Below, in pieces: positions 12,001 through 18,000 of a DNA stretch of 19,629 nucleotides. A program made the position numbers. Numbering within the stretch: position 1 is the first letter of the stretch; each line of letters begins with the position of its first letter. Source of the DNA: a virus (Duplodnaviria > Heunggongvirae > Uroviricota > Caudoviricetes); IMG/VR virus record IMGVR_UViG_2551306674_000013; one strand, written 5' to 3'.

Positions 12001-15000
12001 AACAGGAACAAATAGACGAAGGCATCGAAGCACTGAAAGCCGGATGTGCAGACCTGCTGTTTGACAATATCATGGAACTAACCAGTTCAGCGTTACGTGG
12101 CTGCATTATCGCGCCAACAGGCAAAAAGCTGGTGGTAAGTGACTTGTCGAACATTGAAGGCCGTATGCTGGCATGGCTGGCGGGAGAAGAATGGAAACTG
12201 AATGCATTCAGAGAGTACGACGCCGGAACGGGTCCGGACTTATATAAACTGGCGTATGCAAAAGCTTTCGATATTGCACCAGATGATGTTGATAAACACA
12301 TGCGTCAGATCGGTAAAGTCATGGAACTCGGTCTGGGTTATGGTGGTGGTGTGTCGGCCTTCATCACTTTTGCACTGGTTTACGGTCTCGATCTCGACGA
12401 GCTGGCGAACGCCGCACTACCAAACATTCCCCGCGATGTTATCCGCGAGGCGAAAAGCTGGTACGACGAATCGGTTAAACGCAAGTCAACCTACGGGCTT
12501 TCTGAACGGGTATTTATCGCCTGCGACTCACTTAAACGTCTCTGGCGCCGGGCGCATCCCGCGACCTGTGATTTCTGGTACGAACTGGAGCGCACCGTCC
12601 GCACTGCAATCGCCACACCGCAAAAAACATTGTATTGCGGTTATCTTAAAATCCGCCGCGATGGCGCGTGGCTGCGCATACAGCTACCATCAGGACGCGC
12701 TGTATGCTACCCGTCTCCGGTTATCGAAAAAGGGAATATCACCTACATGGGGGTTAACTCTTATTCGCGTAAATGGCAACGACTCAAAACCTACGGTGGA
12801 AAGCTGGTGGAGAACATCACCCAGGCGGCCGCCCGCGACATTCTGGCCGGAAACATGCCGCTTATCGAAGATGCCGGTTACAGCATTGTGCTGACGGTAC
12901 ACGACGAGGTGATCACCGAAGCACCTGACACAGAAGATTTCAACGATAAAGCGCTTTCCGCGCTTCTCTCCACTGACCCCGAATGGGCGCCCGATATCCC
13001 ACTGAACGCTGGCGGTTTTGAGGCGTACCACTACAAAAAAGATTGATATAACTCACCTTATCGAGCTATGGCGACATGCTGAATTCGAGTAAATTAAAGG
13101 AACAATACTTATGCAGGAACTAACTGAAATGCCGATCACCTATCCATACCCGAGAGAATCTTTTCCTGACTTTTTGAGGGAGTGTGGGTTCACCAATTTT
13201 TCCCACGAACAGCGTGAGACTTGTGACTGCTATCGTTTAACGAATGGCGTAATTGTTAACCTTTACACCACCCGGACCATTCAGTTTCAAGGTAACCCTC
13301 AAGAACGTCCCAATGTTGAAACTGCAATAATGACCCATTTAGGAACGCCGCCCACGGCAACACCACTAGCCGTAGAACAGCCATCTGAGCTCCCCAAAAA
13401 GATATTCATTGTTCACGGCCATGACCATACTGCAAAGGAGCAACTTGAGCTAATCCTTCATAAACTTGGATTACCAGACCATTTCATTTTGCAGAATACG
13501 GGAGGGACTGGACTCACCATTATTGAAGAGCTTGAACGTGAAATTGGGCAAGGACAAACTGCTACCCGTTTCGGGATTGTTCTTTTGACACCTGATGATA
13601 TGGGATACTCAAAGCGCGCCGGTGAAGCAGAAATCCAACCCCGCGCAAGACAGAACGTTGTACTCGAGATGGGTATGCTTCTTTCGTCCTTAGGGCGCAG
13701 CAATGTAGCAATCCTTCAGAAACAGCATCTAGAACAGCCTTCTGATGCTAACGGGATTTTGTATCTGAATTTCAACGACCATGTACGTGAAACAGTTCCT
13801 CGTCTAGTGCAACGGTTACAAAATTCTGGTTTCGAATTTACACAAGCTCAAATAGCTAACGCTTCCTCGTAATTACCCCTTATTGTTGATTACAACCCTG
13901 CATCGCGGGGTTTTTTATTTGGGAATAAAAACCCTATGTCATTTAAATACCGGGACAGTCCGCTTTATTACCGGACTGTGCGGGAGGCTTTGCACCTTGA
14001 ACAGTCCGGCGGGTACGACCGGGCGATGCAGGTCTGGGCCAAAGCGAACGTCGGTTTGATTTTTGTCTGATGCAGAACATGCGCGAAAAGCGTAAGGAGG
14101 TGGACGATGTCTAATATCGATAATAAGGGTTGGGGGTTCCCCGCTCTGTCAAAAAAAGCACATTTCTTTAATTCGGGGGAAGCCATATCACTATGCGGAA
14201 AATGGATGTTCATAGGTATCAGGATTGATGAATGGCATGACCATCCTGAGAACTGCGCTATCTGCATGAAGAAACGCAAAAAGCAGGAAGGCGAAAGCTA
14301 ATGGCCTATGAACGTGAAAACCTAATCGAAAAGCACCTCGTCGCCGAAGTGAAAAAGGCTGGCGGGGTCGCCTTTAAGTTCGTGTCACCCGCTCGCCGCT
14401 CGGTACCGGATCGCATTGTCCTGCTACCCGGCGGTCGCATCGTCTTTGTCGAATGCAAAGCGCCAGGCAAGCCACCACGGCCTGACCAGTTGCGCGAGCA
14501 TGAACGTCTGCGAAAGCTAGGCTTTACCGTGGTGGTATTAGATAGCAAAAATCTGGAGGGGATATTGTGAGTAAACGTGATGACCCACAATTGCGGGTAC
14601 GCATCCCGCAAGACTTGAAAGACACACTGGAAAAAATTTCCAGAGAAAACGACAGAACACTAACCGCCGAAATCACCCGGCGGTTACGTAAAAGTTTAGA
14701 GGATGAATCCACTATTCATTCTCAGGATTTAGCAACTTCTTAAGTTTTTCCATCACTTCAATAAGCTCGTATTTGTTTTCATAAACCCATTCGACCTGAT
14801 ACTCTCGATGGTACGTTGTCTTAAGTTTCTCGAGAAGATCCCTGAGTATGAGAATCTCATCAGCAGCTTCCTCAAACCCCCTAGATGTATGAAGTAATTT
14901 GTCCTGAAGAATAGTAGATTCCAACCGGCTAACGATCTCAGAGGTCAGTGTTCTCTTATTAGCCCGTGCTTTCTTCTCCAAAGCCTCTTTTAGCAATTCT

Positions 15001-18000
15001 GGTATGCGTACCCTCAACTGCGGGTCGTCTCTTTTGCTCATATATGATCCCTTGAAAGTGTGAGAACAACATGCCTCACAAACATGTTGACTTCAAGCCT
15101 CATTGTGAGTACTAATAAAGTCCTCACAATGAGTACAAAACAAGGTTAACGCTATGGCTATTCAGATCACGCAGTTACATCAGGCAGATATTTTCGGGTA
15201 TATCGCGGACATGCTGGAAACAGCAAGGCTTCTCAGTTCGCTGGAAAAAGGAGAGCAGTTAGCTTTTGAATTGATTTATTTTGCGCAGCAGGCTGCAAGG
15301 GAAGCTGCAAACAAGCCGTGGGATGAATAAATAAAACGCGCTGATAGTTGCAGCTACCAGCGCATCTTTTATTGAATGGAGAATACTTCAATGTTCGAAA
15401 CAACTTTAACACTAGCAGGCACTGGTAAGCAACCGATGATGAGCAGTCGCGAGATTGCAGAACTTACCGGCAAAGAACATAAAATAGTCGTGCGCGATAT
15501 TAAAGCACTTCTTGAGCAGTTAGGTTTTCATAGTACAGAAATGTACCATCATGAAAATAAAGACTTTTTAGTCAAAAGGAAGGTCTATAATGGTCGCGAA
15601 GTCATTGATGAAATACTACTCGATCAGGACCTTTCCACAACGCTTGTAACTGGTTATAGCGCCCACGACCGGTATAAAGTAGTTAAGCGCTGGCGTGAGC
15701 TGGAAACAGGTAAAGTACAACCGCTTGTTACCCATCCTTCCACACCCAAAATTCAGATCAACGACGGCATCGTCCAGCTTGCTCGCGTCGTAGCAGAAGC
15801 AACAATGAAAGCCTGTCTTGATGCAACTGGCTATTTTCAACCAGCCGCACCAGCGAATTTATCTCATGTTGAAGGTGAATATGTCCCCGTCAGCAAAGCA
15901 GCATGGAAAACAGGTTTATCTGATTCAACATGCCGGAAATTGATCGGCTTCGCCAGGATACCGGTACGTTCAGACACCGGTGTTCGGGGATTGCTCGTTA
16001 ACCTTCCGGCGATCGAACAAGCAGCTCAAAAGCTGTTAAACGAATCGACACCGCCGAAAGGTAACCGCAAGCGCTGGACACATCCGCAGTTTGGCAACTT
16101 CACCTACTACACCGATCTAATCTGACATTATTGCGCGGGATTACCCCGCGCCCTACTGGCTAAAATACTATGGGACAAATTTTCACGCCTCGCCCCTACC
16201 AAGATCTAATTATCAACCACGAAATAGGTATTTCCCGCTGCAACATCTGGGCAGGTATGGGAATGGGTAAAACCGTGGCAACGCTCACTGCGCTGGAAGA
16301 TCTCTTTATGGCAGGGGCAGAAACACGCCCCGCACTGGTCCTCGCGCCGCTACGCGTTGCAGCAAGCACATGGCCGGATGAAGCGCTGAAATGGGGGCAT
16401 CTGCGCAATATCGAGGTGCAGCCGATTGTTGGTAACGCCAAAGCGCGCTCTGCAGCGCTGGCGAACAGCAACGCGAGCGTGTTCACCATCAACTACGATA
16501 ACCTTGTCTGGCTGGTTGAGGAATTGGGAGAACGATGGCCGTTCGGTACTGTCATTCCAGATGAAAGCACCCGGCTAAAATCCTTCCGGCTGCGAGGTGG
16601 TGGTAAGCGCGCGGCGGCGCTGGGCAAAGTGGCGCATAAGTATGTCCAGCGCTGGATAAATCTCACCGGTACGCCAGCACCGAACGGCCTGGTAGATTTG
16701 TGGGGACAATTGTGGTTTGTGGACCAGGGGCAACGTCTCGGGCGCACTTACGGCGCGTTTACCTCACGCTGGTTCAACTCGATACAGTTTCCGGGGCAGA
16801 GCTGGACCAAACTGGAGCCGTTTGCTCGCTCACAGGCTGAAATACAGCGAGCATTAGCCGATGTGACCCTCTCGCTGGATGCGGCCGACTGGTTCGATAT
16901 CAAAGCCCCCATCCATAACGTAATCCGCGTGGATATGCCGCCGAAGGCCCGTCAGCAGTATCGTGAAATGGAAAAGGAAATGTTCCTCGAGCTGAATGGC
17001 GAAGGCATCGAAGCACCGAACGCCGCGGCAAAGACACTGAAGTGTCTGCAAATCGCCAGTGGCGCAGTATACACAGACGACGCCGGAAGTTGGTCAGAAC
17101 TGCATGACACCAAACTACAGGCGCTGGACAGCATATTGACCGAAGCAGCTGGCGCACCTGTGCTGGTTGCTTATCACTGGAAACACGATCTTGAACGCTT
17201 GCTTAAAGCATTTCCTCGCGGTCGTCACCTCGACCAGGATCCACAGACACTACGTGACTGGAATTCCGGAAAGATTCCTGTTCTCTTTGCACACCCAGCC
17301 AGCGCGGGCCACGGTCTGAACATGCAGGACGGCGGAAATATACTGGTATTTTTCTCACACTGGTGGGACCTGGAGCAATATCAGCAAATTATTGAACGCA
17401 TCGGGCCAACCCGGCAGATTCAGGCCGGACACAACCGCCCGGTGTTCATTCACCACATTATCGCCGCCGACACTATGGACGAAATGGTGATGGAGCGGCG
17501 CAACTCAAAACGAACAGTGCAGGACATCCTGCTCGATGCCATGAAAAAGAGAGGTATAGCATGAGCGAGAAACCCGACGATTTACTCACCCCGGATGAAG
17601 TATGCCAAAAGTTAGGTATTACACAGAAAACGCTATGTGAGTGGAATATTAAGCATCGTCATCGGGCTATCCTGGCACCAATTCGTTTCAGTGCAAAAGT
17701 AGTTCGTTATGAGCGCCGCAATGTCGATGCTTTTATTCAAAAGTGTCGCAGCCGGTATTAACCTCGCCGCCGTAGCAATGCCACCTGCGCAAGTATGCTC
17801 CGCTCGTGAGCCTCGAAAGCTTCGCGCTTCAACGCAATCTCTTCCTGTAAAATCTCATCAGAAAAGTCGTAATGTTCTGCCATCGGGTCATCTGACTTGC
17901 TGGAGTGGTGAAGGCAAAGGAGGCTGATTTCCCTTCGGTCTGAGCGGGAATAGCCTCTTTCCTTCATCAAGGCAATAACATTGCTCTTAAGGAATTTACG

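What the first reader, a model, noticed from the sequence alone, without database searches (positions are those of the whole stretch)
14567..15041. Two convergent, overlapping RHH paralogues with identical N-terminal DNA-reading strand but saturated synonymous divergence
Seen: the plus-strand ORF (GTG 14567..14743, 58 aa) and the minus-strand ORF (14712..15041, 109 aa) both begin MSKRDDPQLRVRIP (14 identical residues) and continue with the same RHH pattern (LK..LEK..R.N.RTLT.EI..RL), yet 8 of the first 13 shared codons differ at synonymous positions; the two genes overlap tail-to-tail by 32 nt. Established: in Arc/Mnt/CopG proteins the N-terminal beta-strand inserts into the major groove and sets operator specificity. 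Inference: the two proteins read the same operator half-sites and may compete or heterodimerise (short form versus long form with an extra C-terminal domain), forming a two-repressor switch analogous to but arranged differently from the P22 immI Arc/Mnt pair.
Basis: partly seen in the sequence, partly recalled or inferred. Interest (0 to 1): 0.7.

Follow-up and report, generated by a model that had tools for sequence, protein, structure and literature searches.

The report
Matched Arc/Mnt-like repressor pair in prophage
A prophage of Shiga-toxin-type E. coli carries a short and a long ribbon-helix-helix repressor, encoded tail-to-tail, that appear to read the same three operator sites in front of an antirepressor-like gene; this is a rearranged, single-specificity version of the classic phage P22 Arc/Mnt control module.

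Summary
ORFs 14567..14743 (+, 58 aa) and 14712..15041 (-, 109 aa) are both Arc-family ribbon-helix-helix (RHH) proteins. Their first 14 residues are identical, 8 of those 13 shared codons differ synonymously (pS about 0.9), and the genes overlap by 32 nt.

The pair is a conserved module of PolA-type temperate phages of Enterobacterales, including Stx2a prophages. RefSeq already names both genes "Arc family DNA-binding protein".

The short form resembles Arc and is translationally coupled to the end of the early operon. The long form resembles Mnt: RHH plus a helical C-terminal domain. It is divergent from orf58 and a Rha/Ant-type antirepressor-like gene.

Three Mnt-operator-like palindromes (CCTCAC-N-GTGAGG type; 15074..15136) lie over the inferred divergent promoters.

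In three specificity classes, the DNA-contact residues of the short form, those of the long form, and the operator sequence change together. In E. coli, short gene, long gene and operators are exchanged as one cassette (14584..15142).

This supports shared operator reading and the immI analogy. Binding, competition and heterodimerisation remain untested.

Verdict: a real, undescribed variant of a known kind; moderate interest.

The parts
14301..14570 (+). VRR-NUC nuclease gene, last-but-one gene of the + strand early (replication) gene chain. Its TGA stop overlaps the GTG start of the short repressor.
   Evidence: Pfam VRR_NUC 19.5 bits (E 0.0011), below the 23.8-bit gathering score, and PHROG endonuclease. 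GTGA overlap read from the sequence.
14555..14561 (+). Shine-Dalgarno GGAGGGG for the short repressor.
   Evidence: Sequence. The same motif and GTG start are kept in related loci.
14567..14743 (+). Short Arc-like RHH repressor, 58 aa, RHH domain plus a short tail.
   Evidence: PF03869, 38.4 bits. Best PDB sequence matches are Arc chains, E 1e-4. Purifying selection, pN/pS 0.05-0.29.
14712..14743 (.). 32-nt tail-to-tail overlap of the two coding regions. No room for an intergenic terminator.
   Evidence: Overlap or abutment (-28 to +32 nt) in all related loci.
14712..15041 (-). Long Mnt-like RHH repressor, 109 aa: RHH (about residues 1-50) plus a helical C-terminal domain (helices 55-76, 78-88, 90-104).
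   Evidence: PF03869, 36.9 bits. PDB matches AmrZ 9e-6 and Mnt 2.5e-3. AF2 model with pLDDT 75.8.
14584..15142 (.). Exchangeable specificity cassette: most of the short gene, the long gene, and the operators/promoters.
   Evidence: blastn against class II prophages loses homology at 14583 and regains it at 15143. Flanks are 86-98% identical.
15059..15064 (.). Extra operator half-site TGTGAG near the inferred start of the long-gene transcript.
   Evidence: Conserved in the E. coli, Erwinia, Mixta and Sodalis loci.
15074..15086 (.). O1, CCTCACAAACATG. The left half matches the operator and the right half is degenerate. It lies in the spacer of the inferred long-gene promoter.
   Evidence: It is a perfect palindrome (CCTCACGGTGAGG) in the Serratia and Xenorhabdus loci.
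15098..15112 (.). O2, CCTCATTGTGAGTAC, between the -35 and -10 of the rightward promoter.
   Evidence: The 15-mer CCTCAnnnTGAGTAC occurs twice in the window and in 0 of 200 shuffles. Repeats seen.
15122..15136 (.). O3, CCTCACAATGAGTAC, just downstream of the -10 of the rightward promoter. This is the position of the Mnt operator in P22.
15087..15115 (+). Inferred rightward promoter (P_rha): TTGACT (15087-15092), 17 nt, TACTAA (15110-15115).
   Evidence: Inferred from conserved TTGAC(A/T/G) and its position in all loci. It falls below the threshold of the promoter scan.
15068..15096 (-). Inferred leftward promoter of the long gene: TTGAAG (15096-15091), 17 nt, CATGTT (15073-15068).
   Evidence: Inferred. 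The -10 is CATAAT in class II and in the Serratia and Xenorhabdus loci. Not detected by the scan.
15154..15330 (+). orf58, a conserved small helical protein and first gene of the controlled operon.
   Evidence: Conserved in all class I and II loci and 100% identical across E. coli class I and II cassettes. No Pfam or PHROG hit. AF2 gives a helical hairpin.
15333..15368 (-). Conserved minus-strand intrinsic terminator between orf58 and the Rha gene.
   Evidence: -21.5 kcal/mol, z = -5.8. 14 pairs, 5 with compensatory changes, 96.8% of cells paired, invariant GTTTT tail.
15391..16125 (+). Rha-family antirepressor-type gene. The likely start is 15391, as in RefSeq; the longest ORF starts at 15376.
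   Evidence: Pfam Phage_pRha. PHROG anti-repressor families. The equivalent slot elsewhere holds Rha-N/KilA-N/Bro-N + ANT proteins.
15403..15432 (-). Candidate antisense promoter TTGCTT-18-(TGt)TAAAGT inside the 5' end of the Rha gene. With the terminator it would give an RNA of about 65 nt over the Rha ribosome-binding site.
   Evidence: Sequence. Both hexamers are conserved in loci whose N-terminal peptides differ. No Rfam match. Speculative.

Best explanation
This is an immI-like antirepressor-control cassette with a single DNA specificity.

**Shown by sequence and comparison**
- Both proteins are Arc/Mnt-family RHH proteins.
- Their predicted base-contacting strand residues match each other.
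- Those residues change together with three palindromic, Mnt-operator-like sites.
- The sites sit where the conserved TTGAC hexamer and spacing place two divergent promoters (the promoters themselves are inferred).

**Inferred roles**
- The long protein is the Mnt-type maintenance repressor. Its helical C-terminal domain makes stable oligomers.
- From its own promoter it represses the rightward promoter through O2 and O3. That promoter drives orf58, the Rha-family antirepressor-like gene and SNF2.
- It also limits its own synthesis through O1.
- The short protein is the Arc-type partner. It is translated by coupling at the very end of the long + strand early/replication gene chain, so it is made only after infection or induction.
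- At high concentration it occupies the same operators.
- Early transcription runs head-on into the long gene, because the two genes have no space between them. It should therefore silence the long gene by transcriptional interference or antisense RNA while supplying the short repressor.
- Control of the antirepressor promoter would thus pass from the lysogenic repressor to the lytic-phase repressor instead of being lost.

Short gene, long gene and operators travel as one exchangeable specificity unit.
For: **Family and resemblance**
- Both proteins hit the Arc domain above threshold.
- The short form is closest to Arc and the long form to AmrZ/Mnt.
- Aligned to Arc, Q8/R10/R12 fall on Arc Q9/N11/R13. 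That these are Arc's base-contacting residues is recalled from the Arc-operator structure (PDB 1PAR), not checked here.

**Operators**
- The CCTCAnnnTGAGTAC 15-mer occurs twice, 24 nt apart; 0 of 200 shuffles reach this.
- The same three-site layout around TTGAC(A/T/G) is present in every locus.
- The P22 Mnt operator AGGTCCACGGTGGACCT lies just downstream of the -10 of Pant and shares the CAC-G-GTG core.

**Covariation**
- Three classes show strand and operator changing together, with 0 mixed loci of 44.
- In classes I and III the N-termini are identical or nearly so despite 8 synonymous codon changes each.

**Cassette and targets**
- Cassette boundaries lie at 14583/15143.
- No other operator cluster exists in the window or in the whole prophage of strain 89-3156.

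**Architecture and context**
- The convergent arrangement, from a 28-nt gap to a 32-nt overlap, is conserved in Escherichia, Salmonella, Erwinia, Serratia, Mixta and Xenorhabdus.
- No + strand terminator is predicted in 14200..15500.
- The controlled gene is of antirepressor type.
- The long form has a helical C-terminal domain.
- A CI-like S24 repressor and the + strand early genes lie upstream.
Against: - No binding, expression or transcript data exist.
- Both promoters fall below the consensus scan threshold in this window and are inferred from conservation alone.
- O1 is only a half-site here.
- Co-inheritance of the three parts could partly reflect tight physical linkage rather than function.
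- The contact triad does not fully fix specificity: locus L054 has Q-K-R but operator ACCCA-N-TGGGT.
- If early transcription reads through the long gene, it would also read into orf58-Rha. Repression of the rightward promoter by the short form would then have limited effect.
- The antirepressor function of this Rha protein is an annotation-level inference.
- Isolated relatives (vB_EcoM-606R2) lack the whole module, so it is dispensable.
Confidence: 0.55

Rival explanations
1. The short form is an antagonist of the long repressor, not a second repressor. With the same strand and a compatible hydrophobic core it would form mixed dimers, or occupy half-sites without the C-terminal oligomerisation domain. 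That would break cooperative tetramer binding and derepress the Rha operon once early genes are on, giving feed-forward induction.
For: - The strand and core positions (L9, V11, I13, L17, L21, L32, I36, L40) are identical in the two proteins.
- The short form lacks the C-terminal domain.
- It is made only from the early operon.
- Engineered Arc variants can fold preferentially as heterodimers, as noted in PMC3413123.
Against: - In class II the inward-facing strand residues differ (F/L/V against M/I/L), which does not suggest selection for mixed dimers.
- I know of no report that P22 Arc and Mnt heterodimerise (own knowledge).
- No multimer prediction could be run here.
Confidence: 0.2
2. The short form has a different target or role, for example sites elsewhere in the phage or host, or control of the end of the early operon. 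In this case the shared N-terminus reflects common ancestry and similar but not identical sites, as for P22 Arc and Mnt.
For: - In P22 and in loci L055 and L058 the small and large RHH proteins have different strands.
- Residues outside the triad affect specificity (L054).
Against: - The N-terminus shows dN of about 0 with saturated dS in classes I and III.
- Strand and adjacent operators change together in three classes.
- No other site cluster exists in the 80 kb examined.
- The short gene lies inside the exchanged cassette.
Confidence: 0.12
3. The 58-aa GTG ORF is a decaying duplicate or an annotation artefact that makes no functional protein.
For: It is small, starts with GTG and overlaps two other genes.
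Against: - It has a strong Shine-Dalgarno and a coupled start.
- 38 homologue clusters span several genera, many with ATG starts.
- pN/pS is 0.05-0.29 in two classes.
- Its Arc-domain hit is above threshold.
Confidence: 0.03
4. The pair is a type II toxin-antitoxin-like or partition-type RHH system rather than a transcription switch.
For: - RHH domains are common in antitoxins.
- The top PHROG hits carry the label 'partition protein ATPase'.
- There is a weak FitA-like RHH hit.
Against: - No toxin or ParA gene is adjacent.
- The PHROG label does not fit a 58-aa or 109-aa RHH protein.
- The operators overlap the inferred promoters of an antirepressor-type gene.
Confidence: 0.03

Closest known systems
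Phage P22 immI region (mnt, arc, ant, sar RNA)
   Same: - An Mnt-like RHH repressor with a C-terminal extension is transcribed divergently from an antirepressor operon.
- An Arc-like short RHH repressor is present.
- Operators lie between -35 and -10 and just after -10 of the antirepressor promoter.
- Operators are palindromic with a CAC-G-GTG core, like the Mnt operator AGGTCCACGGTGGACCT.
- A possible sar-like antisense element is present.
   Different: - There is one operator type for both proteins, not separate Arc and Mnt operators.
- The Arc-like gene is not the first gene of the antirepressor operon. It sits at the end of the early replication operon, convergent with and overlapping the Mnt-like gene.
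- The arc position is held by orf58, which is not detectably RHH.
- The antirepressor-type protein is Rha-family, not P22_AR_N/C.
- There are three operators instead of two.
Mnt repressor (P22), PDB 1MNT
   Same: - N-terminal RDDP-x-strand-P motif.
- RHH followed by a C-terminal helical region.
- Aligns over residues 4-51, E = 2.5e-3.
- Phage 'Mnt' genes match residues 4-80 at 33% identity.
   Different: - The contact residues are Q-R-R rather than H-N-R.
- The C-terminal domain is longer, has no detectable sequence or fold match, and is swapped freely among relatives.
Arc repressor (P22), PDB 1ARR/1PAR
   Same: - Similar size: 58 aa against 53 aa.
- RHH only, with a short polar tail.
- Aligns over residues 6-50, E = 1e-4.
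   Different: - The strand is PQLRVRIP rather than PQFNLRWP.
- It is expressed from another operon.
- It shares its strand with its Mnt-like partner.
Exchangeable immunity regions of lambdoid phages (repressor plus operators swapped as a block)
   Same: Repressor genes and their operators are replaced together between otherwise near-identical phages.
   Different: The cassette controls an accessory antirepressor-type operon, not the main CI/Cro switch. The CI-like S24 repressor lies at 3827..4501.
Other small-plus-large RHH modules found here (L054, L056)
   Same: A long RHH is divergent from a Rha-type operon, and a small RHH has the same strand as the long one.
   Different: The small RHH is the first gene of the divergent operon, as in P22, rather than convergent behind the long gene.

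Membership tests
Arc/Mnt ribbon-helix-helix DNA-binding proteins (Pfam PF03869) | Sequence match to the Arc domain above the curated threshold. | tested here: met
   Short form 38.4 bits and long form 36.9 bits against a cut-off of 20.4.
Arc/Mnt ribbon-helix-helix DNA-binding proteins (Pfam PF03869) | N-terminal strand with alternating polar and hydrophobic residues ending in Pro, followed by two helices. | tested here: met
   Residue-by-residue alignment to Arc, Mnt and AmrZ chains. AF2 places helices at 15-27 and 32-50. Foldseek's top hits are AmrZ, Arc and CopG, but none is significant (best E 0.3, no match at E <= 0.001).
Arc/Mnt ribbon-helix-helix DNA-binding proteins (Pfam PF03869) | Dimerisation and sequence-specific operator binding. 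| not testable with these tools
   Only indirect evidence: strand and operator change together in three classes.
P22 immI-type antirepressor control module | A long RHH repressor with a C-terminal oligomerisation domain, divergent from the antirepressor operon. | tested here: inconclusive
   The divergent arrangement and a helical C-terminal domain are present. Oligomerisation was not tested, and the C-terminal domain has no fold match.
P22 immI-type antirepressor control module | The Arc-like repressor is the first gene of the antirepressor operon. | tested here: not met
   The first gene is orf58, with hhalign probability 0.1 against the Arc-like profile. The Arc-like gene is convergent behind the long gene.
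P22 immI-type antirepressor control module | Two different operators, one for Arc and one for Mnt. | tested here: not met
   A single palindrome type is found at all three positions. P22 has distinct Arc and Mnt operators.
P22 immI-type antirepressor control module | The controlled gene encodes an antirepressor. | tested here: inconclusive
   The protein has the Rha N-domain and hits PHROG 'anti-repressor' families. Equivalent slots elsewhere carry the ANT/KilAC domain. P22 Ant's own domains are different. Function was not tested.
P22 immI-type antirepressor control module | A small antisense RNA (sar) over the ant ribosome-binding site. | tested here: inconclusive
   A conserved minus-strand terminator with compensatory changes and a candidate promoter are present. 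There is no Rfam match and no transcript data.
Type II toxin-antitoxin RHH antitoxin | An adjacent co-transcribed toxin gene. | tested here: not met
   The neighbours are the VRR-NUC gene, the other RHH gene, orf58 and the Rha gene.

The most novel reading that the evidence does not exclude
The specificity-matched short/long pair would be a new kind of toggle with two layers. Head-on transcription from the early operon shuts off the long gene. The short protein then either replaces the long repressor on the same operators or poisons it by subunit exchange. The state of one antirepressor promoter would thereby be tied directly to early-operon activity, setting the induction threshold of Stx2 prophages and hence toxin output. 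Matched Arc/Mnt-like pairs would then be the common form of immI-type modules and P22's two-operator version the exception.
Probability: 0.2. Interest if true: 0.7.

Novelty: new variant of a known kind. Interest (0 to 1): 0.5.

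Why it matters
Arc and Mnt are textbook models of DNA recognition by beta-sheets, and the classic result is that their N-terminal residues set different specificities. Here nature has built the opposite design: an Arc-like and an Mnt-like protein kept on the same operator by selection, in at least three specificity versions, with the two genes colliding head-on.

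If the model holds, it offers:
- a natural set of strand/operator pairs for studying the RHH recognition code (Q-R-R with CTCAC, Q-K-R with ACCAC, P-G-R with TACAC);
- a compact example of regulation by convergent transcription combined with repressor hand-over.

The module sits in non-lambdoid (PolA-type) Stx2a prophages of STEC and controls an antirepressor-type gene. It could therefore influence prophage induction and Shiga toxin release. The papers on these Stx phages that I read (PMC8044961, PMC8951638) do not mention it.

Tried and rejected
- **Recent gene conversion as the cause of N-terminal identity: rejected.** pS is about 0.9 in the identical segment, and the same holds in class III.
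- **The invariant MSKRDDPQLRVRIP seen in all word-indexed hits: partly ascertainment bias.** An index-free HMMER search shows many other strand types in the family.
- **orf58 as a hidden Arc homologue: no support.** hhalign probability is 0.1. AF2 gives a generic helical hairpin. Foldseek gives nothing meaningful.
- **Fold match for the long C-terminal domain: none.** Only the RHH part matches.
- **Hairpin 14661..14686 inside the short gene as terminator of the long mRNA: weak.** It folds well but is kept in only some loci.
- **Additional operators elsewhere: none above chance** in the window, the 33-kb locus or the remaining 49 kb of the prophage.
- **Consensus promoter scan: no hit** in 14200..15500. 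The promoters are therefore inferred from conservation only.
- **Rfam: no family**, including nothing sar-like.
- **More convergent classes through orf58-based scans:** viral and metagenome contigs gave only classes I and II. Class III came from context look-ups.
- **Literature:** Knight & Sauer 1989 could not be opened. Searches for a prior description of this module found none.

Full report
**1. The observation**

The two ORFs exist as described. The plus-strand ORF is GTG 14567..14743 (58 aa). The minus-strand ORF is 14712..15041 (109 aa).
- Both pass the Pfam Arc-domain threshold.
- They align without gaps over 52 residues, 30 of them identical.
- The first 14 residues are identical.
- In codons 2-14, 8 codons differ synonymously and 5 are the same.
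- Proportional synonymous difference is about 0.9 in the identical segment and about 0.8 in the rest. Non-synonymous difference is about 0 against 0.41.
- Placing 14 of the 30 identities in the first 14 columns has a chance of about 8e-5.

The identity is therefore held by selection on the protein, not by a recent copy event. The coding regions overlap tail-to-tail by 32 nt.

**2. Where the window comes from**

The 1-kb region is 100% identical to chromosomal prophages of E. coli strains 89-3156 and STEC435. It is present in full in 13 of 5,426 complete E. coli genomes. RefSeq annotates both genes as "Arc family DNA-binding protein".

In strain 89-3156 the prophage sits next to yfhL and carries stx2a.

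Gene order in the window:
- a primase gene on the minus strand;
- a CI-like HTH + S24 peptidase repressor (3827..4501);
- a long + strand chain: DUF2800 nuclease, ssDNA-binding protein, an AntA-domain gene, PolA, a TIR-domain gene, VRR-NUC, and the short RHH gene;
- the long RHH gene on the minus strand;
- then orf58, a Rha-family gene and an SNF2 helicase on the + strand;
- the integrase on the minus strand.

This is the non-lambdoid Stx phage type. The two papers on its regulatory region do not mention the RHH pair.

**3. The short gene is real**
- It has a GGAGGGG ribosome-binding site.
- Its GTG overlaps the TGA of the VRR-NUC gene.
- Homologues of 47-63 aa occur in Salmonella, Erwinia, Yersinia, Serratia and Xenorhabdus.
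- pN/pS among orthologues is 0.05-0.29 in two classes.

**4. Resemblances**
- The short form's best matches among solved structures are Arc chains (E about 1e-4). Mnt is weaker at 0.04.
- The long form matches AmrZ (9e-6) and Mnt (2.5e-3). In the phage collection it matches genes annotated Mnt at 33% identity over residues 4-80.
- Aligned to Arc, residues Q8, R10 and R12 fall on Arc Q9, N11 and R13. These are the base-contacting residues of the Arc-operator structure (established knowledge; PDB 1PAR).
- The AF2 model of the long form (pLDDT 75.8) has the two RHH helices plus three further helices at 55-104. Foldseek gives no significant match (best E 0.3); its top hits, AmrZ, Arc and CopG, align only to the RHH part.

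**5. Operators and promoters**

The 112-nt gap between the long gene and orf58 holds CCTCATTGTGAGTAC (15098..15112) and CCTCACAATGAGTAC (15122..15136). The 15-mer pattern occurs twice in the window and never in 200 shuffles. A third, half-degenerate copy lies at 15074..15086, and a lone half-site at 15059..15064.

In Serratia and Xenorhabdus relatives all three copies are perfect CCTCAC-G/C-GTGAGG palindromes at the same positions:
- one in the spacer of an inferred leftward promoter (-10 CATAAT);
- one between TTGACA and the -10 of the rightward promoter;
- one just after that -10.

I read the P22 immI record directly. The Mnt operator AGGTCCACGGTGGACCT sits just after the -10 of Pant, and the Arc operator lies between -35 and -10. 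The present sites share the CAC-G-GTG core of the Mnt operator and occupy both positions.

The promoters here are inferred from conservation. The consensus scan finds none.

**6. Comparative test of 'same operator'**

Loci were collected through several routes:
- the long protein;
- orf58;
- E. coli genomes;
- context look-ups.

They give three specificity classes with the same convergent architecture.

| Class | Short strand | Long strand | Operator (3 copies) |
|---|---|---|---|
| I | PQLR(V/A/I)RIP | PQLRVRI(P/S) | CTCAC-N-GTGAG |
| II | LQFKLR(V/L/I)P | (A/P/H)QMK(I/V)R(L/I/V)(P/S) | ACCAC-N-GTGGT |
| III | APFGLRMP | APFGVRMP | TACAC-N-GTGTA |

- Within each class the outward positions (-6, -4, -2 from the Pro) are the same in the short and long forms, and variation falls on inward positions.
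- Of 44 loci, 31 were class I and 13 class II, with no mixed combinations. Class III is described.
- In class III the first 17 residues are 16/17 identical, with 8 synonymous codon changes.
- The invariant Arg at -2 goes with the invariant CAC/GTG core. The other two positions go with the outer bases.
- Between E. coli prophages whose flanks are 86-98% identical, similarity stops at 14583 and resumes at 15143. Short gene, long gene and operators are therefore replaced together. orf58 stays 100% identical.
- No other operator cluster occurs in the window or in the rest of the 89-3156 prophage.

Caveats:
- Linkage alone would also keep the three parts together.
- Locus L054 shows that the triad does not fully determine the site.

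**7. The controlled genes**

The gene after orf58 is Rha-family here and hits PHROG anti-repressor families. In other loci the same slot holds Rha-N + ANT/KilAC, KilA-N + ANT or Bro-N proteins. These are the usual domain mixes of phage antirepressors. In class III the Bro-N gene follows the operators directly.

Isolated relatives such as vB_EcoM-606R2 have two unrelated genes in place of the whole module. The module is therefore accessory, as immI is in P22-like phages.

**8. Wider family**

An index-free HMMER search with the long protein finds 319 relatives with many strand types. Some combine the class I C-terminal domain with other strands. Strand and C-terminal domain are thus swapped independently.

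In some relatives the small RHH is the first gene of the divergent operon, as arc is in P22.
- It matches the strand of the long one in L054 and L056.
- It does not match in L055, L058 and P22 itself.

The window's arrangement is therefore one variant in a broader set of immI-like modules, and matched pairs are common.

**9. Mechanism**

*Best-supported model (confidence 0.55).* The long form is the lysogenic maintenance repressor of the antirepressor-type operon. The short form, made by translational coupling at the end of the early operon, occupies the same operators after infection or induction. Head-on early transcription meanwhile silences the long gene, since there is no predicted + strand terminator and no intergenic space.

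- Shown: family membership, operator repeats, covariation and cassette exchange.
- Inferred: binding, oligomer states, promoter identity, timing and interference.

*Main rival (0.2).* The short form poisons or competes with the long one and derepresses Rha.

*Other rivals.* A separate target for the short form (0.12), a non-functional short ORF (0.03) and a toxin-antitoxin or partition role (0.03) fit the data poorly.

**10. Verdict**

Competition and heterodimerisation remain open. It is a new variant of a known kind (P22 immI / Arc-Mnt), already annotated at the gene level but, as far as my searches show, not described as a module. Interest is moderate (0.5). It would be higher if the hand-over or subunit-exchange switch is shown to tune Stx prophage induction.

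Noticed in passing
window 15333..15368 (minus strand): A strong intrinsic terminator is oriented against the Rha gene, between orf58 and Rha. It is conserved across genera: 5 of 14 pairs show compensatory changes and the GTTTT tail is invariant. It sits where the sar RNA terminator lies in P22 immI.
   Followed up: yes
window 15403..15432 (minus strand): A candidate antisense promoter, TTGCTT-18-TAAAGT with an upstream TG, lies inside the first codons of Rha. Both hexamers are kept in loci whose N-terminal peptides differ. With the terminator it would give an RNA of about 65 nt covering the Rha Shine-Dalgarno and start codon. There is no Rfam match and no transcript evidence.
   Followed up: partly
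window 15154..15330: orf58 is a conserved 58-aa protein at the position that arc has in P22. It is 100% identical between E. coli class I and class II cassettes, so it is not matched to the repressor type. AF2 gives a helical hairpin. It has no family, profile or fold match, and its function is unknown.
   Followed up: partly
window 13111..13872: A TIR-domain gene (CAP12/Pycsar-effector type TIR, E = 3e-31) sits in the early operon. Strain 89-3156 has an 'Ant' gene in this slot and other relatives have BRO-N or other genes. It looks like a variable cargo slot that may carry a defence gene.
   Followed up: no
window 14661..14686: A perfect 11-bp hairpin lies inside the short gene, over the codons for LTAEITRRL. 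It could end the long-gene mRNA, but it is kept in only part of the related loci.
   Followed up: partly
window 15098..15136: O2 and O3 are direct repeats of CCTCA-NNN-TGAGTAC whose central triplets are reverse complements (TTG and CAA). The same relation holds in locus L046 (CTCAC-T-GCGAG and CTCGC-A-GTGAG), so the two sites seem to evolve as a mirrored pair.
   Followed up: no
window 9478..10242: A second antirepressor-type gene (AntA/AntB domain) lies within the early operon itself, outside the RHH-controlled unit.
   Followed up: no
L008 (Candidatus Sodalis endolongispinus) 3471..4474: The long gene and operators are kept, but the short gene is reduced to a remnant next to the VRR-NUC gene. 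This fits gene decay in an endosymbiont.
   Followed up: no
L047/L048 (Salmonella) 4572..7876: A variant layout: SNF2 lies in the early operon directly upstream of the short gene. The controlled operon is orf58, a Rha-like gene and a PyocinActivator (PrtN/AlpA-like) gene at the prophage end.
   Followed up: partly
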